A DNA stretch of 62,898 bases, the filler included, from Rhabdomonas costata (taxonomy: Eukaryota), in NCBI GenBank assembly GCA_019059605.1. It is 56 parts of 56 records of this genome, joined end to end, with 100 filler letters (N's around TTAATTAATTAA, not from the genome) between each part and the next. Parts side by side here need not be neighbours in the genome. Positions count along the whole stretch, not along the records: positions 1,126 to 2,150 come from JAHMHO010032803.1; 55 more parts are not named here. One strand, given 5' to 3'. Of the stretch, positions 1-50,623 are shown one piece after another; the stretch's first letter is position 1; each line of letters starts with the position of its first letter. The notes beneath the pieces were generated by a model that was given only the letters and a program-made list of their open reading frames with translations, made no database searches and was not told where the DNA came from. The position numbers and the translations under genes are program-made.

Positions 1-23
1 GGTGGTTTGTAACTTTCCCGCAG

Positions 24-1025
24 TGCTGAAGAAAACGCGTGCACGTGGGAGTGCTTCCGGGAGTGGATGTGGAGGTTGCTGTTGGATGACCAAGGGGAGC
101 TTCGGCAGTCTATCGGATTGCCGGAATCCATCTTTGACCCTGTCACTGCTCACGAGAGTGCACCTAACTGCGAGCAAGAAGTGGAAGGACTTGCTGTGGA
201 ACAGCCGGTTTTACTGCCTCCGCGTGTGGAAGTCCTTTATCTCCTTTCCCCAGTACTTTTTCGTGCCTACCGTGAGCTTCCACACGGTAATGCTCAGCCG
301 TCAGGCGTTTTGGGGAATTCGACGAGAAGTCTTCAGCACGTGACTGGTGCTGCCTGCACAGTATCAGAGTATTCTCTCAGTCGGGACTTGCATTTTGACC
401 CGATTAAAATGACAACACATTCTGACTTGCACTGCCGTCTTTGTCTCTACATGTGTTTCGGATCTATGGTTCTCACAGGGCTCGTTCCGTCTGCGGAAGT
501 AATGGTTCAGGCACTTCTGGGGGCTTGCCGGCGTCTTTTGGAACCCTCTGGCAAAGGTTACCAACGCCTAATGGCATTGTCACGTCAGCTCATGGGTGCT
601 GAGGAGAACCAACCAGTGAAGCTATCAGCGCGGGCAGTTTACCATGTTACGGACGTTTTCCCCTCATCCGCTGGTGGACCGACTGGCGCAGAAGTGCTGC
701 GCGAATCAGCAGGAGGGTCAATAACTATGCACGTTGTCCGGGGCGTGTGCCCGGTTCCTTGTTTGCTTCGTACCCTGGCGCTCGGAGATGGATCAGGCTC
801 CTCATTATCAGTGCCAGTTGCAGTTATACATGGTGGTTCCGGCACTCTTCATACTGTTCTCAAGGAAGGCGTACCTTGTGTTGTAGCGCCCTTCTTATTT
901 GACCAGAGCAGATGGGGTGAGACGGCGGATGCTTTCGGTGTGGGGTTGCGTGCTCAAGATATCGCGGACACAGCCGGAGACCTTGCCAGCGTTCCACCAA
1001 CACCACAGCTGGAGCAGAGCCGTGC
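24..1025 (+). CDS. GT-B (GT1/sterol glucosyltransferase-like) UDP-glycosyltransferase, partial long exon
   Basis: Open frame after acceptor ttcccgcag|. C-terminal UDP-sugar motif VIHGGSGTLHTVLKEGVPCVVAPFLFDQSRWG, plus YMCFGSM and WMWRL..DD.G...FDPVT segments typical of sterol-GT-like proteins. Confidence 0.8.
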
Positions 1026-1125
1026 NNNNNNNNNNNNNNNNNNNNNNNNNNNNNNNNNNNNNNNNNNNNTTAATTAATTAANNNNNNNNNNNNNNNNNNN
1101 NNNNNNNNNNNNNNNNNNNNNNNNN
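1026..1125. other. Artificial contig spacer (first of 55): N44-TTAATTAATTAA-N44
   Basis: The same 100-bp spacer with stops in all six frames recurs about every 1,125 bp and separates 56 contigs of 1,019-1,032 bp. Confidence 0.99.
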
Positions 1126-1565
1126 TATTCATGGGTCTGTGTACCAGGCGGCGCAGCGCACTCCGTGAGTCTGGGTTTTGCGGACAATTGAAGCCTCCAA
1201 GACCTCCACTCGGGAAAAGGCACAGAGATTCGAAATTCAAGTCTACTCAAACCAGTTTCGAAGAAAACACTTGGCAGTGGCTCCTGAAGTAGCGCCGCTG
1301 TTTCTAAAGGACCGCTATTCAATTGTGAGCACATGAAGCGGTGCTATAATCTTGGCCACTTTTTCAGCTCAGCTCCTATTTTGTATCCTTTGGAAGTACC
1401 GCTGTCATTTAAAGGGACAAACCGGACAAACCAGCGCAGACAGAATGGCGTTGCCCCGAAACTGCATTTCCTTCCACCAAATGATTCCAACGACGAGAAT
1501 CTAGATTTTCCGCGAACAAAAACACCACAGGGCGAGCTAGAGGGCGGTTGGGGGGGGGGACGCAC

Positions 1566-1682
1566 CGATGGGCTCGCAGCAATCCCAGAACATGCAATTA
1601 TCCGCGGTACACCGGCGCGGCCGACGCGACGAGGCCGGTCGCATGAGCGGGGGGCAGCGGAAATTTTGCTCACAGGTCGGCG
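1566..1682 (-). CDS. Six-cysteine module exon (phase 1-1, 117 nt)
   Basis: ggtttcag|..|gtgcgt; reads xPTCEQNFRCPPLMRPASSRRPRRCTADNCMFWDCCEPI, in frame with the 1915-2034 exon. Confidence 0.8.
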
Positions 1683-1914
1683 CTGAAACCGAATGAAACA
1701 GTACTAATGAAAGCCAAGAGCAGAAAACTGAAGGGACAAAACGCTCCCGTTGTTCAGTGCCGTCGATTTAAGCTGAGCTCGCAACTTCGAATGAAAATGG
1801 GTAAATTCCCCTGTGTCTCATTCGATTATGATCCGCACACAACTCATCAAAAACTAGATGCAAACGTGTACCCTAAGACAATCTCAACCATGAGGGAAGG
1901 CGTCGAGCAGATAC

Positions 1915-2034
1915 CAGTGACGCAGCATTCCTCGGCTGTGCACCTCTGCCCCGCACAATTCTTTTCGGAGTGCAGAACGGGGACGGACCCGTTCGTGCAA
2001 ACCAAAGTGGAGGCTGCGTCCGAGCACTTCGGGG
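1915..2034 (-). CDS. Six-cysteine module exon (phase 1-1, 120 nt)
   Basis: ttttgctcag|..|gtatct; reads xPKCSDAASTLVCTNGSVPVLHSEKNCAGQRCTAEECCVT. Not in the ORF track in this frame. Confidence 0.8.
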
Positions 2035-3821
2035 CTGAGCAAAAGTATCATAGCTACCACGCAAGGTTTGAAGGCACACTTCGAGCGTGCTCACGAATCG
2101 AAAACCTTGTTCTTTCATACATGCCGCCTTTTTTGCACGTCTGTACTTCANNNNNNNNNNNNNNNNNNNNNNNNNNNNNNNNNNNNNNNNNNNNTTAATT
2201 AATTAANNNNNNNNNNNNNNNNNNNNNNNNNNNNNNNNNNNNNNNNNNNNGTGGTGGGGGTCCTTGTATTATTTATCATCACTTAGGCATGGATTTACCC
2301 TTACAAACCTCTGATAAACAGACATTGTAACATTGTAACATTGTTCAACATATTAATCCAGGTAAGAAACTTGATGGTAAAATTTGAAATTAAATTTCGA
2401 CATCTTTAACTGATCCAAACTCCACACGAACTTGTAGCCACACGTCTGTGGAAACAGCTGCCATTTCAACTTTTCTACATTTCTACATTTCTAGCCTTAT
2501 GAAAAGACTTGACAAGGCGTAACAATTCATGTGCACCCAACGCTCCTGTGGAATATATGATCTCTACTTGATCTTGAATCCTGCTGAAGTCATTAAGGTT
2601 TTCTACAGACACAATCCATGTTATGAAATTAGATGGGTTTTCATCGCACTTCTTGAACTATTGATCTTTCTTATAAAATTTCCGCAAATGTCACAGCTCA
2701 TCTGGAATTGATGAAGCTGGCGCATCACATACACTATGTAAACCTTCCGCTGAGGGTCCAGCAAGAATGTGCAATATAGTTATTGTACCGCTGATTCTGC
2801 TCCATTCTATGTAAAACGATACGATTTGGGTTATAACAGTCTGATTAATATGTGGTGCGGGAGCTGCTCTAGGCTTTGAAGGTGGAGAATTTCCTGAAAT
2901 AAAATCTGAACTCACCTCTGAGATTGGGATGACCTCCACTCAGCTTCTCGTTTGAACGAAGAGAGTCGTGAGGAAGATGACATTCGCCATATCCAACCCA
3001 ATAGACCGGCCACTTGTCGTGTGTGAAATGAGCTGCGGCATGGCGGAATGGAGCCCACTTATTCACACGCCTGTGGACGCTGCCGTGATACGCGTTAATT
3101 TACAGGTTTTGGGATTTCCTGGAGGGTGCTCAGCTGCTGCTGCGGTCTGAGAGGAAGAGGGAGTGCAGATGAACAGAAAGAGTGGTAGGGCAGAAAACGC
3201 GTGCGGAGCGAGAGTATTGAAGAAAGCAGCATAGAAGGCGGAGTAGGAAGCACAAACACCAACCACACCCAACACNNNNNNNNNNNNNNNNNNNNNNNNN
3301 NNNNNNNNNNNNNNNNNNNTTAATTAATTAANNNNNNNNNNNNNNNNNNNNNNNNNNNNNNNNNNNNNNNNNNNNGGTTGGTTGGAATTAACAGGACATA
3401 TCCTTGCTCTCGATGGCAGTGTGCGCTTCATGATGCACGCCAAGACCTCCTCAGGAACACCCTTTTTGGGGGGAGGCCGATGCCAGCAGAAAAGCGCACA
3501 CTGCCATCGAGAGCAAGGATATGTCCTGTTAATTCCATGCCAATCCTAATCATGGGCTGTGAAACACCAACCGAGATCAAGTGCGTAGCCCACCCCGAAA
3601 TCACAACAAGGGCTGCCCCCGTCGTCATTACCTTTTCTGTGATGTGAAAATCCCGGAAATTGAGAAAAAGTGGGACCTATTGTGACAGAATAGGGGGAGG
3701 GAAGCAGCCGCAGGCCCCACAATTGGAGGTCAGCCTGCCCAGGTCCTTACAATGCGTGGTATGCTGAATGGGAAACGTGAAAAGGGCATGGGTGTTGGGG
3801 CCTGTGCCAGGGGCCGCGCAC

Positions 3822-4019
3822 CCGGTTCGGGCCGATCAGGTCCAGCAAGGAGCCGTCCATGGCCTCCAAGGCGATGAACACGGAGCCGTCGAGGGCGTAC
3901 GCTCCCATGAAGTCGATGATGTACGGGCAGATACTGGTCTCCTTGCTGCCGTATAGGGTGCCCAGCTCCTTGGCAATCTCCTCCATGTGGCGCTCCCCAC
4001 CCAGCTTGATCTCCTTCAC
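3822..4019 (-). CDS. MAP kinase kinase (STE7/MEK-like) exon, subdomains II-V
   Basis: cgcag|VKEIKLGGERHMEEIAKELGTLYGSKETSICPYIIDFMGAYALDGSVFIALEAMDGSLLDLIGPNR|gtgcgc; 198 nt, phase 0-0. CPYII.F.GA and MDGSL are MEK-like. Confidence 0.8.
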
Positions 4020-4699
4020 CTGCGCGCACAGAGAGTAAATATACACAAAAATGAATGCGCTGATCAAAATCAAACCAGGAGGGGGGGAAGGTGCTAGGCG
4101 AGCCGTTGGGAAGTCACTGCCACTGTCACCACCATTTCCAAAGTGGTGTCATCACTTTTTATGACGAGTTTCGAGCACATTCCACCACGTATTGTACCGA
4201 AGCAGAGCCGAAGCATTGGGTCTGCCTCCCCTCCTCCCAGGCGTCAAGCGCAGCTGTGCCTATAGCAACTGACGTCACACACAATTCAAGGAGAATCCAA
4301 GTCATCAGTGCATTCGAAGGAGCGCGAGAAAAGAGAGAAGCCAATCCCGCACCACCACCACCACCACGACCACCACCACACACCCAACCACACCCAACAC
4401 NNNNNNNNNNNNNNNNNNNNNNNNNNNNNNNNNNNNNNNNNNNNTTAATTAATTAANNNNNNNNNNNNNNNNNNNNNNNNNNNNNNNNNNNNNNNNNNNN
4501 GTCCAAGTACACCACAAAGACCACGCACAACCCACAGCAAGCGAACCATAGTAACACAGAAGCACCCGACACCATTGCAACCTAACCTGCCTGACAAAGA
4601 CCTAACACAAAATGACACCCACAAGCACCATAAAATTACGAGCACACACAGAAGAAGAAGAAAAAGTGGCTAAAAACCCAGCAAACAACGGAACCTGGA

Positions 4700-4915
4700 A
4701 CACTGACCACGAACCATTAACCCAGAAACTAACCCTTGGATACCTGAAGCGCGCAACCACCCAAGCCACTGCAGAACCCACACTCCACCTCCACAACACT
4801 CCACGAAACCCACGCACACGACACTCTACGAAACCAGCATCCATGAAACACACAAAGCACCATACCTCCCACACGCATCCTCGCATACCATCCTACGCTC
4901 CCTCACACGCAACCT
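4700..4915 (+). pseudogene. Possible decayed tyrosine recombinase C-terminus in an A/C-skewed contig
   Basis: EPLTQKLTLGYLKRATTQA, then after a frameshift (from 4797) HSTKPTHTTLYETSIHETHKAPYLPHASSHTILRSLTR. Spacing H-x-x-(R>K)...H-x8-(Y>S) fits the recombinase tetrad; each altered codon is one base from R or Y. Confidence 0.4.
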
Positions 4916-6280
4916 CCACCAACCGCAACCCGGCTCACCATCCACACCATCTACCCTCCAGCGCCGAAGCCCCAACGTACAAAGCACCACATACACCCAC
5001 CGCCTACACCTGCTACACCCAACCATGACCCTCCACGCACGACCCCACTTCGCAAACACTCCGCACGAACACCCACCCCACCGAATACCAATCACCAAGC
5101 AAAAATTCGCGATCACAAAGCAACCCATACAACAAATCGCTACACCCTCACACCACACCTTCACCCCGCAAGCAACCTCCGCGCAACCCTTTAATGCAAT
5201 CCGGACAAGCGACTCCCACACCCACACACTAAGACCAACACCATGTTCCTCATTGCATATACCATTATCTGATCCGCCAAATCAGAAAGCAAAAAACCCG
5301 CACCAGACCACCATCAAGAGAAGGAAAACGAAGAGAAGAAACCGACACCGACACACTGACCACAACCACGAAACGCAAACCCAACACAGAACACGAACGC
5401 CTACACCTAGACCAATGACTACTGGCACCGCTACCTGAATTCAGCCCACCAAATACAGGAACCCTCATCTAGAACCCAGAATACCATGAGATCACCAGAC
5501 GCAGAAGGCACCAACCCACACCTTANNNNNNNNNNNNNNNNNNNNNNNNNNNNNNNNNNNNNNNNNNNNTTAATTAATTAANNNNNNNNNNNNNNNNNNN
5601 NNNNNNNNNNNNNNNNNNNNNNNNNGTGTCGGGTGTGTTTGGTGTGTTGGTTGTGCTGGGTGCGTGGGTGGGGAAGTTCCTTTGGGCTTCCTTGCCGGCT
5701 GGACCCCGGTACCCAGTTACTGGTAAACGAACTTGAACCTCCTGGTTCAGGAAGGGGGGTCGAGCTTCAACTTAACTCCGCGGATATTAGGATATAAAAA
5801 AATCCCTACGCTGGCCTCCGGATGTGGCCATGCTGGGAAGTATTCGTACCTCTTCACCATCTCTTCGTCCTTCCATACGTGGACTGTGTGTCGCTTTCCC
5901 TGCGATGCCCCCAAAAGTACATACGAGGCCAATGATGAGGCCATCAGCTGACTTTGGGACACTTGTATTTTTGGGGTAACATTTAAGGCCGTTAAACGCT
6001 CCGGACTTCGTGGATGTATGGGGCAACATTACTTCTTTTTTCGACCGTTTAACGTCAGTGTAAAATGTTGAGCGGCATCCCCTCCCCAGAAAAAATACAC
6101 CTTTGCCTTTACAAACACAGCCACCACTACCACGGAGTAAATCTTTTAAAAGACCTTTCGGGACGTAAAGCAGCCCTGAAAAAAAACAGCTCTGAGGCCA
6201 CCAGGCCGTTGCTTGGGCATACACTTCTTCACAGATCGACTGCAATTTAAGAGGCGGAAAGCCAAGAAGCACCGGGGTAC

Positions 6281-21277: not shown

Positions 21278-23968
21278 NNNNNNNNNNNNNNNNNNNNNNN
21301 NNNNNNNNNNNNNNNNNNNNNTTAATTAATTAANNNNNNNNNNNNNNNNNNNNNNNNNNNNNNNNNNNNNNNNNNNNTGTGGTTTGGCTATGAAAGCTTA
21401 TCCCAGTGTCAAACTGAAGGCAGCGGTAAAACCACAATCTCGCAAACAGGCAATGCAGACAACGTAGGGTACTTTGACTTACTTGATTGAATGCTGTCCG
21501 CGAGATTGTGGTTTTACCGCTGCCTTCAGTTTGACACTGGGATAAGCTTTCATAGCCAAGCCGATTAACCAGCACGAAAACTTGTTGCCTGCTATCACGA
21601 GCGGCTCTTTGAGACCAAATCCGGAAAAGGTAACATATCCCCCACTTTGGGGTTGAAGAAGAAAAAGACCTCTCCCTTCTGCCAGACGACGTTTCTCTTT
21701 CAGAAATACTTATAACTTATAACTATTGGCCGTGGGGTGGCGGAGGGGACGAAGACAAGGCTTCCTCGAACCACCCTTCTGTTGCGATTTGTTCTGCGGC
21801 TCATCGCACCCACGCCCGCCAACAGAGAGGGATTAAGACACGAAGCGCTGGAGACCGCCACGCAACATATGGGACGCTTTTCTATCACACTGTCCCTTTG
21901 GTTGAATGCGGTAATCCCTGCTCAGAATAAATTGCTATGAGATATATCCTTTGACGGTTTTGTCGACGACGGGACCTGGGTGCAATGTTTTTCGATACAA
22001 AATATCCACAAGCCATTGCCAATATAGCGCAAAAGTATTGGAAACACATTAGCGTGATCCGTTCCCCGCGTGAAGCGCGTGACACTGCTGTGTTTGAGGT
22101 CAAATTTGTAAGGATGTCCCCCCGAAACATGCCCGCATATCATGGTTAAATGGTTGGTTGCTATTTTGACTGTGTCCTTTTTTTTGACCATTGTGCACAT
22201 GTTCGACGGAAACTGCTTTAACCAAAACGCTTGCTCAACCTATGAAATGACCTACACAGGAACGGTAAATGACGTTTAATTTGAACATTATCTCATCAAC
22301 AGAAAAGTCCCCGTCTGCTCATTTTTAATGTGCCCGCCACAAAGCAGCAAATAATTATCATAATCAATTAACTTCAATAAATTATATGCAAGTGTTATCT
22401 CTNNNNNNNNNNNNNNNNNNNNNNNNNNNNNNNNNNNNNNNNNNNNTTAATTAATTAANNNNNNNNNNNNNNNNNNNNNNNNNNNNNNNNNNNNNNNNNN
22501 NNGTTGTGGTTTGGCCGACGCATCACCTCCCAGCTGCAAAGTGGTAGACCGATGCCGTCTGAAACGCTTCTGTATGTCCTTGAATTCGTGACGTTGGCGG
22601 CGTTGGTCTTTTAGGGGCATTTTGGGCTCATTGAGAGCGATCGAAAATGCCATTTAGAGCCATTCAGCGCCATTTACGCTAATTGGCATCATTTGCACCA
22701 CTTGCGCCATTTTTACACTGGCTTTTCGAAACTCCCTTTTTGGAGTATTTCACACTTTGAGCTCTTTCTGGTCCTTTGCAGGCCTGTATGCCGAGCCTAG
22801 GCTTTCAGCTGGGGCGGCACAGCATACCAAGGGCAGACCCTATGGTTGAGATTCGCGATAGGCCTCTTCCCCATTCGCCGATCGCACGGCATCTCATTTT
22901 GCGTTAGATGGGGTCTGGGATATTTGCGTTAGGCTTGGGGGTCTGGATAGTGTGTCTGTTTGTGTTTGTTTGTGCCCAAAAGAAAAAGACGAAAGTGAAG
23001 GGGAAAGGGGGAAAGAAAAGAGGAAAAGAAAAGAAAAAGAAGGTGTCCATCAATACTAGGCAGGAGAATGCACCGCGACTGTCAAAAGTCGCCGTACACA
23101 CCATGACGTTTCCACGAGCCAAGAATGCGAAGGCCTCGGCAGGCGCATCGGGTCGCGGCCTCGGCTCCAATCCAGGCTGATAAGAAATCAGACCAAAAGA
23201 AGAAAACAGAAAAAAAAGGGATCCCGAGACGAGTACGTGGACAGACAAGATGAATTAATTCTCACTTTGAAAAAGGGAGGGTAATTAATTCATTTACGCA
23301 ACCCCTCTCCCTATGAGTGAGTTATAAGGGGTGATTTCGGATGGATACACAGAGTCATACCGTAACGTCACACCTACAGGGGCCCTGCTCCGAGAGAGGA
23401 AGGTTAATATATTACGAGTCTAAGGGCTTTGCCACTGCTGCGACATAGTATGTTGACGAATGACGTTGAGAAAAGGGAGGGTGGACCCACCGAGCCTGGG
23501 AAGCGCCTGGGGGGTCCACCCACCCACNNNNNNNNNNNNNNNNNNNNNNNNNNNNNNNNNNNNNNNNNNNNTTAATTAATTAANNNNNNNNNNNNNNNNN
23601 NNNNNNNNNNNNNNNNNNNNNNNNNNNGGTGTGGGGACGGAAATGAGTTTCTCTCGTCTGCCAAGTTTTTGAGCATTCACCACACTGATGGACGGGGGAC
23701 AAGAGCACTCTGAAGCAACCGAAACACAGCCGACTGCCCGGCGGCCAATTCTTACAGTCCCTTCGCATGGAGTTTCCGATCGGCAGGTGACCCCGCCTGA
23801 GCACAATGCTTCGCGCGACAACTATGAAGCAGGACCCAAGCACAACCACGGGACAGGAAACCAAGAGGCAAGTCAAATTAGCCAAAGATGCAGCCGGAAG
23901 AGGGGTCATTCACACGGGTCATTTATCAAAAACGACGAAAAAAGTCACACGTCCGCTTTTTCCGAAAC

Positions 23969-24410
23969 CTTTACGCGCAAACGTCCACTGCTCGGGTCCT
24001 CCTGTACAAGCACGTTCTCCAGCTTCAGGTCGCGGTGCACGATCCCCCGGCCATGCAGATACACCAGACCCTCCAGCAGCTGCCGTGCAACGTCCGCGGC
24101 AACCCACTCCGCAACCCGGCCCTTCTCCTGGACCACATTAAACAGCTCCTTGCCCTCGAAAAGCTCCTCCACGAGGTACACCGTGCTGGAGTCCTGGAAG
24201 GCGTAGTAGATCTGGATCAGGTGAGGGCAGTGCAAGTCCCTCAGCGTGGTCATCTCGCGGTAAAGGTCTCCCATGACGTCATTGTCCTTCAGCACGGCCT
24301 TCACGGCGTACTTCGTGCCGGCGCTGATCCCCGCGAAACCACCCAGGGAGCTGCTTTTGGTGCAGATCGCCTTGTAGACGATCCCAAAGGTACCCCGGCC
24401 AAGCTCCTGC
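23969..24410 (-). CDS. CAMK-group Ser/Thr kinase exon, subdomains I-VIb
   Basis: ELGRGTFGIVYKA...YAVKAV...E...GIVHRDLKLENVLV; ttgcag| acceptor and |gtttcg donor. Confidence 0.92.
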
Positions 24411-24838
24411 CTGCAACTCCAGCGAAAGAGGCACTCCACACGACCGGAAGGAACATCAGCCAGAAGAGGTCTCGCCATACACCCTCAGTCTTCTCCCAAT
24501 ATGAGCAAAAATGAGAGAAGACTGCAAAAGGAGCGTGCTGCGAGAGCAGAAGCACGACATGGAAGCACTCCTGCAGATGCCCAAAGGCACCATACTTTCA
24601 CTTTCACGAACGCTATCAGCTCCCCAAACTCCAACACATACTACCAAACACCNNNNNNNNNNNNNNNNNNNNNNNNNNNNNNNNNNNNNNNNNNNNTTAA
24701 TTAATTAANNNNNNNNNNNNNNNNNNNNNNNNNNNNNNNNNNNNNNNNNNNNAAGTGACGAGAGAACAAAAACCCAACTGTCCCTAAGTAAAAAAAAAAA
24801 CAAGAGCTCATGCACCGCAAAATTGATGTAAACCCAAC

Positions 24839-31954: not shown

Positions 31955-32077
31955 ATGCAGCGCCGGCGCCCTGCGTGGTCTTTGCTGGGCTGCAGTGCCT
32001 TCCCGGGCGAGTGTTTGACCCCCTCCTAACCTGCTCCGCCGTGCCGTGCACCCCGGAGGAGGACTGCTGCAGCCCTG
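31955..32077 (+). CDS. Six-cysteine module exon (phase 1-1, 123 nt)
   Basis: ttcccaaag|xAAPAPCVVFAGLQCLPGRVFDPLLTCSAVPCTPEEDCCSP|gtcagc. Confidence 0.75.
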
Positions 32078-35382: not shown

Positions 35383-35499
35383 ATTGGGCGCAGCAGTCGC
35401 CTTGTGTGCAGGTCCCGGAGGGGCACGAGGACGCCGTGATGGATTTGTACACAGTGCCCTCGGGGCAGGTAAACCCGAGGCACGGGAACGCCGCGTTGG
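35383..35499 (-). CDS. Six-cysteine module exon (phase 1-1, 117 nt)
   Basis: ttatcgcag|xNAAFPCLGFTCPEGTVYKSITASSCPSGTCTQGDCCAQ|gttcga. Confidence 0.8.
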
Positions 35500-39268: not shown

Positions 39269-41040
39269 NNNNNNNNNNNNNNNNNNNNNNNNNNNNNNNN
39301 NNNNNNNNNNNNTTAATTAATTAANNNNNNNNNNNNNNNNNNNNNNNNNNNNNNNNNNNNNNNNNNNNTTTTGTTTTTTCTCTTCTCCTCTCGTCTTGTC
39401 TCGTCTTCTTCTCGTATCGCTGCGACTCGCACTTGCATTTTGCTGTGCCTTCGGTCCCCAGGTTCCCAGATCTCCCACAATGGGAAATCCCCCGATACGA
39501 AGCAAGACCATCCATGACGTCGTTCTTGGCTACAACGGTGACTGCTTTTTATCCGCTGCGTTTTTCTTGTTGGGTCAGTGACATCTCAAGGGCAGAGGCT
39601 CTTCTTCTCAGCGATATCAGCCATTAACCTACTTCAAATCTTCTCTGCTTTAGCGTTTCCGCAGTTACAGTGGGTCTGAAAAACGCGACCTTACTTCCCC
39701 TAGTTTTTGATGTGTGCTAATCTGAAATCTGTTACTAAACTTTTTGCCTATGTTTCAAACGCAAACGAGTGGTAATGAATATATCATCTATCCTTCTGTT
39801 TTGCGGGTTGAATATGAGGAGGCTCTCGCCGTTGAGGAATCTTTGTGATTTTGTGGTTGTCAGCTCAGATGAGAATGGAATGAGAATCACCCTTCTCTTT
39901 CTTTTTTTTGTCTCTTTTTATTCTGCATCAGTCTGCAGCCTTGCGCTCACCTCGCACTTTGTGCTGCGGATAAGCGCTGTGACGATGACATTGTTCCACT
40001 TCGGGAAAAGGTCCAGCTCCAGGAACTACTGCAACACGGTGTGTGCGGTTGCTGGGATTCCTGTGTTTGCTTGATCAGTCCGATCTGAACGATGACTTTT
40101 TTACTCGCGGGGTTTCCAGGCTGCCATTCAGGATCTCACGGTGCACTTCTTTACCGACTACGAGGTGGAGTCCTCCAGAGGTGTGTATTGGTCATCGTAT
40201 GGCAACAATTTGTCGTTTTGACTCATGTTCTTCTGACGTTCCATTCTGATTCTGCTGCCGTGCGCAGGACAACGCCCCCCGGTGACTCATGTCATCGCCA
40301 GCTCACGTGTTCAGGTTCATGTCCCCGCGCATACACAAACACACACCGCGTTGGGTATTGGTACAACTCTCTCTCTCTCGTCACAAACACANNNNNNNNN
40401 NNNNNNNNNNNNNNNNNNNNNNNNNNNNNNNNNNNTTAATTAATTAANNNNNNNNNNNNNNNNNNNNNNNNNNNNNNNNNNNNNNNNNNNNTTTTTGTGT
40501 GAAGCTGACGATAAACCTCACTGAAATCGTTTGGAAACAGAGCCACTATGCTGTCGAGAAACCTTCCGCTGCGGTGGGGGCTAGAAGAAAAATGGAATAA
40601 GAGAGAGCAACCCAGTAGACCTGAATGCAAGAGAGGGAGATGGACAGCCCAACCGAGTGTTTCGGGGGGGGGGGCACTGCATGCAACCAAGGCTCATCAT
40701 CGTATTGGAAGCAACTCAGCCTAAGGAATGCAAGTCAGAGAGAGAAGAATAAGGAACCGTGCAAAAAAATGCTCCGACCGCAACATTCAAAGGGTTCCCT
40801 TCTCACTGCAGGTGGACAGAGTTTGCAGTGAGAAGGGAACGAAGTTACGTGGACAATTGAAACTGCCTGCAAACAACCATCCAAAAATCTAAAGAGTAGG
40901 GCTGCTACCTTGAATTTTGCTCGCTTTCAAAACATTTCATTACGTCCTGCCCCCTCCAGGGCGTTGTTCTGACGCGAGAATGGCAAAGTACGACGAGGGG
41001 AACAACCCACACCATATGTCACCGCCCTCGCTGTGGTTAG

Positions 41041-49092: not shown

Positions 49093-49641
49093 CTGAAGGA
49101 AATGAAAAAGCACAGAGGATCGGATCCGAAGGATCCGAAGGGCGGCGCTAGAGGGGCGATTCAGGATGTCTTCCTGCATTCCAGCAGCGCGAAAACAACA
49201 TGGGATGTCACCAAAGTTGACAGCTTCAATCACCTCACTGGCAGTTTTGGCTGTAGAGGAGGGAGGAGGAGGGTCCGAGGCAGCAAGATCCAAAATGCAT
49301 TTAATTTAACTTAACTCTTGCAAGGATGCAAGTATTGCGTTTTCAGCTCTGATTTAATCGCACATGTTCTTTCGAAAGCAACAAACAAAAANNNNNNNNN
49401 NNNNNNNNNNNNNNNNNNNNNNNNNNNNNNNNNNNTTAATTAATTAANNNNNNNNNNNNNNNNNNNNNNNNNNNNNNNNNNNNNNNNNNNNTACAAAGCA
49501 GGTCGCACTTTGTCTTGCTGGATTTGTCTCTTCAGTCCAAGACACAGGCACAGGAATGCCTGCTCTGGAGCTGCCGCTCCTTGTGGGCCGGCCTTTCTGC
49601 ACTACCGTTGCCAGGTGTATGTGTGTGTGTGTGTATGTGTG

Positions 49642-49714
49642 TGTGTTGTCTAGCACGAACAGCAGCACCGTGAACGCGCCAAAAAACCAACAGGTGTGCA
49701 GAACAAGCAGCACA
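49642..49714 (+). repeat. Dispersed repeat family B, copy 2
   Basis: Near-identical to 15577-15649. Confidence 0.9.
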
Positions 49715-49846
49715 AGGACACGCCACAGCACACCGCGCCAAGGCGCCATGTGTGTGTTGGAAGAAGCAGGTTCAGTAATCGGTCCATTCAGGCAAGATGG
49801 GCCGGGACTTGTTGGGTTCGCTTGCATTTTGTTGAGACGATGGTTT

Positions 49847-49850
<4 letters not shown>

Positions 49851-49888
<38 letters not shown>
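49851..49888. repeat. (TG)n microsatellite
   Basis: Perfect dinucleotide run. Other simple repeats: 32347-32391 (TG), 45625-45662 (AAG/TAG), 55350-55388 (CAAGA), 55650-55698 (CT). Confidence 0.95.
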
Positions 49889-49890
<2 letters not shown>

Positions 49891-50623
49891 GTTTGCGTGT
49901 TTGATGTGTACGGTTGATTTCTGTCCCCGGTCCAACACACAAGAAATTATTTCAGTACGCCCTTGTCACCCCAACCGCCTTACAACGTCTTGCACCACTC
50001 ACGGTCCCGCCTCAAGGCGGGAGCTCCCACTACTCACAACCCCGCCCTTGCTGCCCATGGTTTCCTTGCAGAAGTTGTGATTATCCTGGCATCGGCCTGG
50101 GGTTGAAGCTTGTGTTGGAATGGCTCCACCGTCTTCAGTCCTTCCTGAGAGTGCAAAGCTGCTGTGGTAGTACTCCGTACCCCCGACCCACTGCGTTTTC
50201 AGTGGGTCTCCAGTTGGCTTATGTCTCTTCTCTACCTGACTTGAGCCTTTTACATCGAATGCAAAGAACATACTTCTCGTTGGACTCCTTGGAGGGGCTG
50301 GAGGTTGCAGAAACCTTTTTCTCTTGAAACTCTTCGCACTCTCCTTTTCGACTTGGGGTTGTTGGGGGGTTGAGGGTGCCTAACCTCTTCGCTTTCTTTT
50401 TTCTTTTCAAAGGGCTTCGAGGTGGCTCTGACTCTGCATACAGTTTTTCGTGGAGCCCCCTGTCGCAGCAGGTTTTCGCAATGAGCTTGTGGTGTGCTTC
50501 TACGGGTTCTTGGCCTGCGCAGANNNNNNNNNNNNNNNNNNNNNNNNNNNNNNNNNNNNNNNNNNNNTTAATTAATTAANNNNNNNNNNNNNNNNNNNNN
50601 NNNNNNNNNNNNNNNNNNNNNNN

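What the first reader, a model, noticed from the sequence alone, without database searches (positions are those of the whole stretch)
1126..2034. Six-cysteine module encoded one-per-exon (phase 1-1), found on three unrelated contigs: candidate modular surface-protein family
Seen: four complete exons (1915-2034, 1566-1682, 31955-32077, 35383-35499; 117-123 nt, all multiples of 3, all phase 1 at both ends) each encode exactly one C-x4/8-C-x11/14-C-x4-C-x4/5-CC unit with D or E before the CC. Sequence between cysteines is highly variable. Two are consecutive exons of one gene, and a third truncated unit may start at about 1232 (xLNFESLCLFPSGGLGGFNCPQ...). Known: symmetric 1-1 exons carrying disulfide modules are the signature of exon shuffling in animal extracellular proteins such as EGF and LDLa. 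Inference: 3 of 56 arbitrary contigs carrying it implies a very large family in which any module can be skipped, duplicated or swapped without frameshift, possibly a diversified coat, adhesion or recognition repertoire in a protist. I cannot assign the module to a named domain.
Basis: partly seen in the sequence, partly recalled or inferred. Interest (0 to 1): 0.8.

Follow-up and report, generated by a model that had tools for sequence, protein, structure and literature searches.

The report
Undescribed six-cysteine module on cassette exons
A small cysteine-rich protein building block that no domain library names is encoded one per exon in secreted proteins of a euglenid protist, in a layout that lets it be copied or moved between genes without breaking the reading frame, much as in animal surface proteins.

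Summary
Four exons (2034-1915 and 1682-1566 on the minus strand, 31955-32077 plus, 35499-35383 minus) each encode one C-x4-8-C-x11-14-C-x4-C-x4-5-CC unit. All four are bounded by AG and GT and are phase 1 at both ends. Shuffled sequence gives 0.003 to 0.1 such hits per window, against 4 observed.

Transcript-derived proteins of Rhabdomonas costata match the exons: one at 100%, two at 87-89%. They diverge from genomic read-through at the predicted junctions. These proteins start with a signal-peptide-like hydrophobic stretch. They use the module in three contexts: tandem arrays, alone after a unique N-terminus, and on both sides of a Kelch propeller.

The same module occurs in brown-alga proteins, attached to subtilase, cupin and PNPOx-like parts. 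It also forms arrays of 4-28 copies in 8 environmental contigs, one of them a type I membrane protein with the array next to the membrane.

Neither Pfam nor PDB sequences or folds recognise it, even in a 28-copy array.

Most likely it is an undescribed disulfide-rich extracellular spacer or binding module spread by exon duplication and shuffling. The claimed third unit near 1232 is unsupported. "Very large family" and surface anchoring in this organism remain untested.

The parts
1915..2034 (-). Exon A: one six-Cys module (loops 8/13/4/4), 120 nt, phase 1-1
   Evidence: Translation and AG/GT flanks. Local HMM E 1e-9. 20 of 23 residues identical to the last, truncated module of transcript-derived P0003; similarity to genomic read-through stops at the acceptor.
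1683..1914 (-). Intron of 232 nt between exons A and B, GT...AG, phase 1 (splits an Ala codon G|CG)
   Evidence: Sequence read on the minus strand. The join reproduces the linker motif CCV-x-A-P-x-C of P0003 and P0004. No transcript of this exact gene was available.
1566..1682 (-). Exon B: one six-Cys module (loops 5/14/4/4), 117 nt, phase 1-1
   Evidence: Local HMM E 2e-3. 37% identity to module 4 of P0004, which starts with the same A-P-T-C.
31955..32077 (+). Exon C: one six-Cys module (loops 7/11/4/5), 123 nt, phase 1-1. An isolated module after a unique N-terminal region.
   Evidence: Identical to residues 85-124 of transcript-derived P0001 (RCo033676). The 82 N-terminal residues of P0001 are not on this contig, and identity ends at the acceptor.
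35383..35499 (-). Exon D: one six-Cys module (loops 4/13/4/4), 117 nt, phase 1-1. In its paralogue it lies between a Kelch propeller and another Cys-rich region.
   Evidence: 89% identical to module 2 of P0002 (RCo023986). Flanking residues differ on both sides exactly at the exon ends. AF2 model of this module has mean pLDDT 70.6.

Best explanation
What it is. Each of the four exons encodes one copy of an undescribed extracellular module of about 33-37 residues. Its pattern is C1-x4-8-C2-x11-14-C3-x4-C4-x4-5-C5C6, with T/S after C4 and an acidic residue before the CC.

Shown here:
- The module is a real, recurrent unit of transcribed genes of the euglenid Rhabdomonas costata.
- In the window it is encoded one per exon, with phase-1 introns on both sides and exon lengths divisible by 3.
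- It occurs in proteins that begin with a signal-peptide-like hydrophobic stretch.
- It occurs singly and in tandem, next to unrelated domains (Kelch propeller, a further Cys-rich region).
- It also exists in brown algae and in environmental sequences.

Inferred:
- The six cysteines form three disulfides in a self-contained fold. Isolated copies carry exactly C1 to C6, and AF2 confidence rises over exactly one module.
- The unit spread within and between genes by duplication or insertion of the exon together with its phase-1 introns. This keeps the frame, which is the exon-shuffling mechanism known from animal EGF and LDLa modules.
- Functionally it is a rigid spacer or stalk, or a binding unit, that holds or accompanies binding or catalytic domains outside the cell. 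The two variable loops (x4-8 and x11-14) are the likely variable surface.
For: Exons and chance: (see the observation check).

Transcription and splice sites:
- A profile of the four modules retrieved 3 proteins at E <= 0.01 among 365 candidates. All are eukprot RCo entries.
- P0001 is identical over exon C. P0002 is 89% identical over exon D. P0003 matches 20 of 23 residues over exon A. In every case similarity to genomic read-through ends at the predicted junction.
- RCo proteins were predicted from the transcriptome because the genome was too fragmented for gene prediction (PMC8219788, passages). One search names the source as Rhabdomonas costata.

Architectures:
- P0003: hydrophobic N-terminus plus 3.5 modules.
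- P0004: N-terminus, 4 modules, Kelch, then at least 1.5 modules.
- P0002: N-terminus, 1 module, Kelch, 1 module, then further Cys-rich sequence.
- P0001: N-terminus, unique region, 1 module.
- Each of the 4 proteins has a single hydrophobic 19-residue window, at the N-terminus.

Module gain: the P0003/contig-2 lineage has two successive x8-type modules (51% identical) before the A-P-T-C module. P0004 has one.

Self-contained unit: the isolated modules in P0001 and P0002 have exactly six Cys. In the AF2 model of P0003, pLDDT is 70-83 only over residues 121-160, which is one module. The single-module model has mean pLDDT 70.6.

Wider family:
- Exhaustive phmmer with P0003 also hit a Cladosiphon okamuranus protein (E 8.5e-8, 6 stretches).
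- Brown-alga relatives carry 2-8 modules with Peptidase_S8, Cupin_1 or PNPOx_N.
- A degenerate DNA pattern covering only C3 to CC+V pulled 11 metagenome loci. 8 of them hold ORFs with 4-28 complete tandem modules, including the C1 and C2 spacing that the pattern did not impose.

Stalk or surface reading: L011 reads hydrophobic N-terminus, BspA-type LRR, 7 modules (residues 613-860), TM (918-944), 26-residue tail, stop. L003 ends in a hydrophobic tail 3 residues after its last module.

Not a named domain:
- 0 Pfam families on 4 of 4 single modules at E <= 10.
- None on the module regions of P0001-P0009.
- None on the 1345-residue, 28-module ORF of L007 at E <= 0.01.
- No PDB sequence match.
Against: - Only 4 exons (8 junctions) could be examined. 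They are paralogous copies, so the shared phase is one inherited character, not four independent observations.
- No transcript identical to the contig-2 or contig-32 genes was found, so the A-B splice is inferred from paralogues.
- No signal-peptide predictor was run. The N-terminal stretches could be signal anchors.
- All four R. costata proteins lack their C-termini.
- Disulfide bonding and fold are not shown.
- In L004/L008, two same-strand ORFs are separated by a short AT-rich spacer, so this is probably genomic DNA. There an array of 13 modules is uninterrupted. One module per exon is therefore not a property of the family as a whole, and the introns could be secondary.
- The spacer or binding function rests on domain order in relatives only.
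Confidence: 0.7

Rival explanations
1. The module is a diverged member of a known cysteine-rich superfamily (EGF-like, TNFR/furin/ephrin-receptor-like, WAP or defensin-like) that profile searches fail to recognise. It would then be a known domain in an unusual host, not a new one.
For: - A C-P-x-G motif follows C2 in part of the modules (P at C2+1 in 5 of 11 R. costata and 14 of 14 brown-alga modules; G at C2+3 in 8 of 11 and 13 of 14). This recalls furin/ephrin-receptor-like repeats (recalled).
- The only Foldseek rows for the module model are beta-defensin-1 chains, which also end in CC.
- Small disulfide domains are hard for HMMs and for AF2.
Against: - No Pfam family on any module region, even with 28 copies in one ORF.
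- The defensin rows are not significant (best E 4.4, probability 0.04, TM 0.33).
- The fixed C3-x4-C4-x4-CC spacing (loop 3 = 4 in 94 of 112 distinct modules, loop 4 = 4 in 106 of 112) fits none of the recalled spacings of these families.
Confidence: 0.15
2. The one-module-per-exon layout comes from secondary intron gain at the linkers of an originally intronless array, followed by tandem duplication. On this view modules did not move between genes by exon shuffling.
For: - Arrays in 8 environmental loci are single uninterrupted ORFs. At least L004/L008 look genomic, with two adjacent genes.
- R. costata is described as intron-rich (PMC8219788, passage).
Against: - The isolated modules of P0001/exon C and P0002/exon D sit between unrelated sequences and are still flanked on both sides by phase-1 introns. 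This is what insertion of a 1-1 exon predicts. Independent gain would have to produce it twice per module, in the same phase.
- Whether most environmental contigs are DNA or cDNA is unknown to me, so their lack of introns carries little weight.
Confidence: 0.15
3. One reading: the modules form a very large, fast-diversifying coat or recognition repertoire, with hundreds to thousands of cassette exons. Variants would be generated by exon skipping, duplication or swapping.
For: - 3 of 56 arbitrary 1-kb contigs carry the module. The exact binomial interval is 1.1-14.9%, or about 400-5,400 of the 36,105 contigs of 1 kb or more reported for the assembly.
- Two window exons have 87-89% identical paralogues among transcripts.
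- Sequence between the cysteines is variable: median pairwise identity 38% among 15 R. costata modules.
Against: - Exhaustive phmmer with P0003 against 1.84 billion representatives found only one other R. costata cluster at E <= 0.001. The near-length word search found only P0003 itself among 190 candidates.
- Short contigs of a fragmented assembly are enriched for repeated families, which inflates the extrapolation (inference).
- No data on alternative splicing were obtainable.
Confidence: 0.15
4. The structural unit is not the exon-encoded C1 to CC unit. It would be a knottin or hevein-like unit (C3-x4-C4-x4-CC-x3-5-C1'-x4-8-C2') that straddles the intron, with the x11-14 loop as the linker.
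For: In tandem arrays the spacing C-x4-C-x4-CC-x3-5-C-x4-8-C resembles the recalled spacing of six-Cys hevein-like and knottin peptides. The CC to next-C1 gap is 3-6 in 82 of 84 measured cases.
Against: - Isolated modules in P0001 and P0002, and the last modules of the P0009 and L011 arrays, have exactly C1 to C6, with no Cys partners after the CC.
- AF2 confidence in P0003 rises over residues 121-160, from C1 to CC of one module.
- No Pfam chitin-binding or toxin family matched.
Confidence: 0.03

Closest known systems
Animal extracellular modules spread by exon shuffling (EGF-like, LDL-receptor class A and similar; Patthy's phase 1-1 class; recalled knowledge)
   Same: - Small disulfide-rich unit, one per exon, phase 1 at both ends, exon length a multiple of 3.
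- Used singly and in tandem, next to unrelated domains, in secretory-pathway proteins.
- Membrane-proximal arrays in a type I membrane protein (L011).
   Different: - Different cysteine pattern, with a terminal CC. No Pfam match to EGF, Ldl_recept_a or any other family.
- The host is a euglenid (Discoba), not an animal.
- Relatives in environmental contigs have intronless arrays.
WAP four-disulfide core (spacing recalled)
   Same: A C-x~5-C-x~5-CC core followed after 3-5 residues by further cysteines, in secreted proteins.
   Different: WAP has eight Cys per unit. Here isolated units have six, and the cysteines after the CC belong to the next module. No Pfam WAP hit.
Beta-defensins (only Foldseek rows)
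   Same: Six Cys in under 40 residues, ending in CC. About 30 residues align.
   Different: - Not significant (E 4.4-8.7, probability <= 0.04, TM 0.33-0.35).
- Different loop lengths (recalled 6/4/9/6 against 4-8/11-14/4/4).
- Defensins are single secreted peptides, not repeat modules.
Furin-like / ephrin-receptor-like / TNFR cysteine-rich repeats (motif recalled)
   Same: C-P-x-G-(T/F/Y) after a cysteine. Tandem stalk-like arrays in the ectodomains of protist and animal surface proteins.
   Different: - These have no terminal CC.
- No HMM match on any module region. TNFR_c6 matched only L006, a locus without the module, at 22.3 bits, below its cut-off of 29.4.
Attractin-type extracellular Kelch-propeller mosaic proteins
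   Same: P0004 and P0002 combine a hydrophobic N-terminus, a Kelch propeller and flanking Cys-rich modules. P0004 gives a sub-threshold hit to Beta-prop_ATRN-LZTR1 (44.6 bits, cut-off 50).
   Different: Attractin's flanking modules are EGF, PSI and laminin-EGF (recalled). Here they are the unnamed six-Cys module.

Membership tests
Phase 1-1 exon-shuffled extracellular module class | One module per exon, both introns in phase 1, exon length divisible by 3 | tested here: met
   4 of 4 module exons in the window. The junctions agree with transcript-derived proteins. Only 4 exons could be examined, and they are paralogous.
Phase 1-1 exon-shuffled extracellular module class | The same module occurs in different domain contexts and in varying copy number | tested here: met
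   R. costata: tandem after the N-terminus, isolated after a unique region, and on both sides of Kelch. Brown algae: with S8, cupin and PNPOx. Environmental loci: with fn2 and BspA LRR.
Phase 1-1 exon-shuffled extracellular module class | Proteins enter the secretory pathway or are extracellular | tested here: inconclusive
   All 4 R. costata proteins have a single N-terminal hydrophobic stretch (Kyte-Doolittle, 19-residue window). No signal-peptide predictor or localisation data were available. L011 has N-terminal and C-terminal hydrophobic segments with the array between them.
EGF-like domain | Match to Pfam EGF-type models; six Cys with a C-x-C near the end and no CC | tested here: not met
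   No EGF family at E <= 10 (single modules), <= 1, <= 0.1 or <= 0.01. The module ends in CC.
TNFR / furin-like / ephrin-receptor-like repeats | Match to TNFR_c6, Furin-like or Ephrin_rec_like models | tested here: not met
   No match on any module-bearing protein. The only TNFR_c6 hit was below cut-off and in L006, which lacks the module.
WAP four-disulfide core | Eight Cys per unit; match to Pfam WAP | tested here: not met
   Isolated units have six Cys. No WAP hit.
Beta-defensin fold | Significant structural match and defensin loop spacing | tested here: not met
Hevein-like / knottin six-Cys unit straddling two exons | Folding unit runs from C3 of one module to C2 of the next | tested here: not met
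   Isolated and terminal modules carry exactly C1 to CC. AF2 confidence peaks over one C1-to-CC unit. Disulfide pairing itself was not testable.

The most novel reading that the evidence does not exclude
This is a widespread but unnamed eukaryotic extracellular domain family. It is found in euglenids, brown algae and unidentified plankton or soil organisms, in arrays of up to at least 28 copies.

In Rhabdomonas costata it has been captured as a phase 1-1 cassette exon and multiplied to hundreds or thousands of copies. That would give a free-living euglenid an animal-style, exon-shuffled repertoire of variable surface or secreted proteins. It would be an independent origin of that genomic device outside Metazoa.
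Probability: 0.2. Interest if true: 0.75.

Novelty: new member of a known kind. Interest (0 to 1): 0.55.

Why it matters
- It adds a domain family that current libraries do not name. The family can now be defined from 112 distinct copies (11 R. costata, 14 brown-alga, 87 environmental). This would let long, currently unannotated cysteine-rich ORFs in protist, algal and metagenome data be annotated.
- It gives a concrete case, backed by transcripts, of the 'one disulfide module per symmetric phase-1 exon' layout in Discoba. That layout is the textbook signature of exon shuffling in animal extracellular proteins. Whether such shuffling shaped protist surface proteomes becomes testable in euglenids once a contiguous genome exists.
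- The domain partners (Kelch, BspA-type LRR, fn2, secreted subtilase and cupin) point to a role at the cell surface or in the extracellular matrix of organisms whose surface biology is almost unknown.

Tried and rejected
Tools that gave nothing or were unavailable:
- No whole genome is held for the window. Read-level splicing, exon skipping and a genome-wide module count could therefore not be tested.
- Rfam over the window: 0 matches.
- Earlier-findings look-ups by place, sequence and words: nothing.
- MAFFT misaligned module 2, so the four-module profile is imperfect.
It was re-run with the 40-residue module first.
- P0003 near-length search: only itself among 190 candidates.
- ESM Atlas with module 4 and with P0004 residues 30-205: the same three unnamed eukaryote clusters (taxa recorded for a few members: Foraminifera, Chlorophyta), scores 0.77-0.90. 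These are leads only.

Structure:
- AF2 of P0003 was poor (mean pLDDT 51.7).
- Foldseek PDB: 5 rows, all beta-defensin-1, E >= 4.4. A missing match from weak 38-residue models does not show that the fold is new.
- PDB sequence searches gave nothing on the module.

Other collections:
- Viral contigs: 0 for the DNA pattern and 0 for the L008 ORF.
- The records behind the metagenome loci are not held, so the organisms carrying the large arrays were not characterised.
- 3 of the 11 metagenome loci (L001, L006, L009) are other Cys-rich ORFs with no complete module.

Readings rejected:
- The knottin or hevein-like straddling unit (see rivals).
- The third exon near 1232.
- Contig 37, 40790-40888, as a partial module (E 0.014).
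- My recollection that the Euglena gracilis genome paper described TNFR-like surface families was wrong. 'cysteine', 'TNFR', 'kelch', 'necrosis' and 'EGF' occur 0 times in its main text (PMC6366073).

Literature:
- Searches, and passages read in PMC10084794 and bioRxiv 10.1101/2024.02.19.579948, turned up no description of this module.
- The only exon-shuffling proposal for Euglena that was listed concerns plastid-targeting presequences (PMC2920757; listing and start of abstract only).
- These searches are narrow. InterPro, SMART and CDD could not be consulted.
- Supplementary tables S2-S3 of PMC8219788 (predicted introns) were not opened and may hold these genes.
Full report
**What the window is.** It consists of 56 contigs of 1019-1032 nt, joined by N runs with a ttaattaattaa spacer. 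The finding lies on contig 2 (1126-2150), with two further copies on contig 29 (31496-32520) and contig 32 (34870-35894).

**The observation.** Translating the four intervals gives one six-cysteine unit each:
- 2034-1915 (-), 120 nt.
- 1682-1566 (-), 117 nt.
- 31955-32077 (+), 123 nt.
- 35499-35383 (-), 117 nt.

The loop lengths are 8/13/4/4, 5/14/4/4, 7/11/4/5 and 4/13/4/4, and D or E precedes the terminal CC in all four. Every interval follows a pyrimidine-rich stretch ending in AG and is followed by GT. Each begins with two bases that finish a codon and ends with one base that begins one.

**Controls for chance.**
- A loose cysteine regex over all six frames of all contigs finds these four and nothing else.
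- In 300 dinucleotide-preserving shuffles the loose pattern appears 0.1 times per window (max 2) and the strict one 0.003 times (max 1), against 4 observed. The strict pattern was written from the hits, so it is post hoc.
- An HMM made only from modules of database proteins recovers exactly the four exons (E 3e-11 to 2e-3). There is a gap to the next ORF at 0.014-0.08.
- The suggested third, truncated unit near 1232 does not fit the spacing. It has no significant similarity to any family protein (E about 1) and is not found by the HMM. I do not count it.

**Organism and transcripts.**
- A profile of the four modules, searched among longer proteins, returned 3 proteins at E <= 0.01 out of 365 candidates. 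All are EukProt entries with RCo identifiers.
- A later exact look-up names the source of a fourth, P0004, as Rhabdomonas costata.
- Passages of PMC8219788 state that the RCo proteins were predicted from the transcriptome. The 106.9-Mbp genome draft (143,763 contigs, 36,105 of them 1 kb or longer, N50 1194) was judged too fragmented for gene prediction. The proteins are therefore evidence independent of the genomic contigs.
- P0001 is identical to exon C. Its 82 upstream residues are absent from contig 29, and identity ends at the predicted acceptor.
- P0002 is 89% identical to exon D and differs from genomic read-through on both sides exactly at the exon ends.
- P0003 ends in a truncated module that matches exon A in 20 of 23 residues, and again departs from read-through at the acceptor.
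- Joining exons A and B makes a split Ala codon (G|CG). This reproduces the linker motif CCV-x-A-P-x-C that separates tandem modules in P0003 and P0004.
The three contigs correspond to three different genes, each with its own N-terminus. The junction evidence for contigs 2 and 32 comes from close paralogues, not from the identical genes.

**Protein architectures.** Regex counts give 1, 2, 3 and 5 complete modules in P0001 to P0004.
- P0003: hydrophobic N-terminus plus 3.5 modules.
- P0004: N-terminus, four modules, a Kelch propeller, then at least 1.5 modules.
- P0002: N-terminus, one module, Kelch, one module, then further Cys-rich sequence that looks Sushi-like by eye but has no Pfam match at E <= 1.
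- P0001: N-terminus, a unique region, then one module.

Each of the four has a single strongly hydrophobic 19-residue window, at the N-terminus. All four are cut off at the C-terminus. Entry into the secretory pathway is therefore likely, but membrane anchoring is unknown. P0003 and P0004 align collinearly. The P0003/contig-2 lineage shows two successive x8-type modules, about 51% identical, before the module that starts A-P-T-C. P0004 shows one. This fits gain or loss of a single cassette.

**Is the exon the folding unit?**
- I considered that the real unit might straddle the intron, as C-x4-C-x4-CC-x3-5-C-x4-8-C. That spacing recalls hevein-like or knottin peptides (recalled).
- Against this, isolated modules (P0001, both in P0002) and terminal modules (P0009, L011) have exactly C1 to C6.
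- In the AF2 model of P0003 (mean pLDDT 51.7) the only confident stretch, pLDDT 70-83, covers residues 121-160, from C1 to CC of one module.
- A single-module model of exon D with a 12-row alignment reached mean pLDDT 70.6.

**Known domain?**
- Pfam gives nothing on the four single modules at E <= 10.
- It gives nothing on the module regions of P0001-P0009.
- It gives nothing at E <= 0.01 on a 1345-residue ORF with 28 copies (L007).
- PDB sequence searches with the module profile, P0003, P0005 and the L007 ORF give no relevant hit.
- Foldseek listed only five beta-defensin-1 chains at E 4.4-8.7.
- With 38-residue models of middling confidence, this does not prove a new fold. It shows only that none is recognised.
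- InterPro, SMART and CDD could not be consulted.

**Distribution beyond the window.**
- An exhaustive phmmer search with P0003 over 1.84 billion representatives gave 3 proteins at E <= 0.001: itself, P0004 (4.8e-17), and P0005 (8.5e-8, six stretches).
- P0005 is a gene model of the brown alga Cladosiphon okamuranus.
- A word search with the P0005 array added P0007, P0008 (Pylaiella littoralis) and P0009, giving 4 proteins at E <= 0.1 among 1373 candidates.
- These carry 8, 6, 4 and 2 modules of very regular spacing (4/14/4/4), next to PNPOx_N, Peptidase_S8 or Cupin_1 domains.
- The PNPOx fusion may be a gene-model artefact. P0005 has a second signal-like stretch (279-297) just before the array.
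- A degenerate DNA pattern covering only C3-x4-C4-T-x-E-E-CC-V found 11 loci in the metagenome collection.
- 8 of those 11 hold long ORFs with 4-28 complete tandem modules. These show the C1-C2 spacing and the 36-40-residue period that the pattern did not demand. The other 3 (L001, L006, L009) are different Cys-rich ORFs.
- L004 and L008 are 98.9% identical copies.
- Over 112 distinct modules, loop 3 is 4 residues in 94 and loop 4 is 4 residues in 106. Loops 1 and 2 vary.
- Partners include fn2 (L002) and BspA-type LRR (L011).
- L011 reads hydrophobic N-terminus, LRR, seven modules (613-860), a hydrophobic segment (918-944), a 26-residue tail, stop. L003 ends in a hydrophobic tail three residues after its last module.
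- In these relatives the array is therefore the membrane-proximal stalk of a surface protein.
- These arrays are uninterrupted ORFs. L004/L008 show two same-strand ORFs separated by a short AT-rich spacer and so are probably genomic. One module per exon is thus a feature of R. costata, not of the family. For the other loci I cannot tell DNA from cDNA.
- Nothing was found in viral contigs.

**Mechanism.**
- Shown: a recurrent, transcribed six-Cys unit; one exon per unit with phase-1 introns on both sides (4 of 4); presence in proteins with secretory-type N-termini; several domain contexts.
- Inferred: three intramodule disulfides and an autonomous fold.
- Inferred: spread by duplication or insertion of the exon with its flanking phase-1 introns. 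The isolated copies lie between unrelated sequences and still have phase-1 introns on both sides, which is the strongest pointer to this.
- Inferred: a role as a rigid spacer or binding unit outside the cell.
I give each about 0.15.

**Family size.**
- 3 of 56 contigs is 5.4% (exact 95% interval 1.1-14.9%). If these contigs were a fair sample, that is about 400-5,400 of the 36,105 contigs of 1 kb or more.
- The 87-89% paralogues point the same way.
- Against it, the exhaustive search found only one further R. costata cluster. That search cannot see proteins with one or two modules, and the published protein set was collapsed at 90% identity.
- Short contigs are probably enriched for repeated families, which would inflate the extrapolation.
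- The claim stays open.

**Verdict.**
- The exon-shuffling-type modular reading is supported.
- 'Surface' is supported for relatives and only suggested for R. costata.
- 'Very large' and 'diversifying' are untested.
- I found no description of the module in Pfam or in the papers searched (passages). I rate it a new member of a known kind: small disulfide-rich extracellular repeat modules on symmetric exons.

Noticed in passing
L002, L003, L004, L005, L007, L008, L010, L011 (metagenome loci): Long uninterrupted ORFs with 4-28 tandem copies of the same six-Cys module, from unidentified organisms. L007 is one 1345-residue ORF with 28 copies and no Pfam or PDB sequence match. L011 is a type I membrane protein (BspA-type LRR, 7 modules, TM, short tail). 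L002 also has an fn2 domain.
   Followed up: partly
L004 2222-2248 and the matching part of L008: Two same-strand module-bearing ORFs are separated by a short AT-rich spacer. The second ORF starts with a hydrophobic N-terminus. This suggests a compact genome with tandem genes of this family. L004 and L008 are 98.9% identical although they come from different records.
   Followed up: partly
P0005 (residues 279-297) and P0007, brown-alga gene models: A second signal-peptide-like stretch lies just before the module array. The fusion with the N-terminal PNPOx-like domain may therefore be two genes merged by gene prediction.
   Followed up: no
window 40790-40888 (-), contig 37: A short ORF behind an AG has a stretch resembling C2 to C3 of the module, then a stop (local HMM E 0.014). 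A similar short motif (F-N-C-P-x-N) occurs in the unsupported 'third unit' on contig 2 (about 1190-1170, minus strand). Probably chance.
   Followed up: partly
P0002 residues about 425-509: After the second module comes a further Cys-rich region that looks Sushi/CCP-like by eye. It has no Pfam match at E <= 1. It may be another unrecognised module.
   Followed up: no
window 13-1023 (+), 23945-24484 (-), 60759-61160 (-): Other coding fragments in the window: a glycosyltransferase-like C-terminus (EryCIII-like_C, 25.6 bits, below cut-off), a protein kinase domain (E 5e-31) and a myosin head fragment (E 2e-14).
   Followed up: partly
whole window: Rfam finds no RNA family at gathering score in any of the 56 contigs. 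Several contigs carry CA/TG-type simple repeats that read as long H-T or C-V runs in ORF lists (for example 49444-50080).
   Followed up: no
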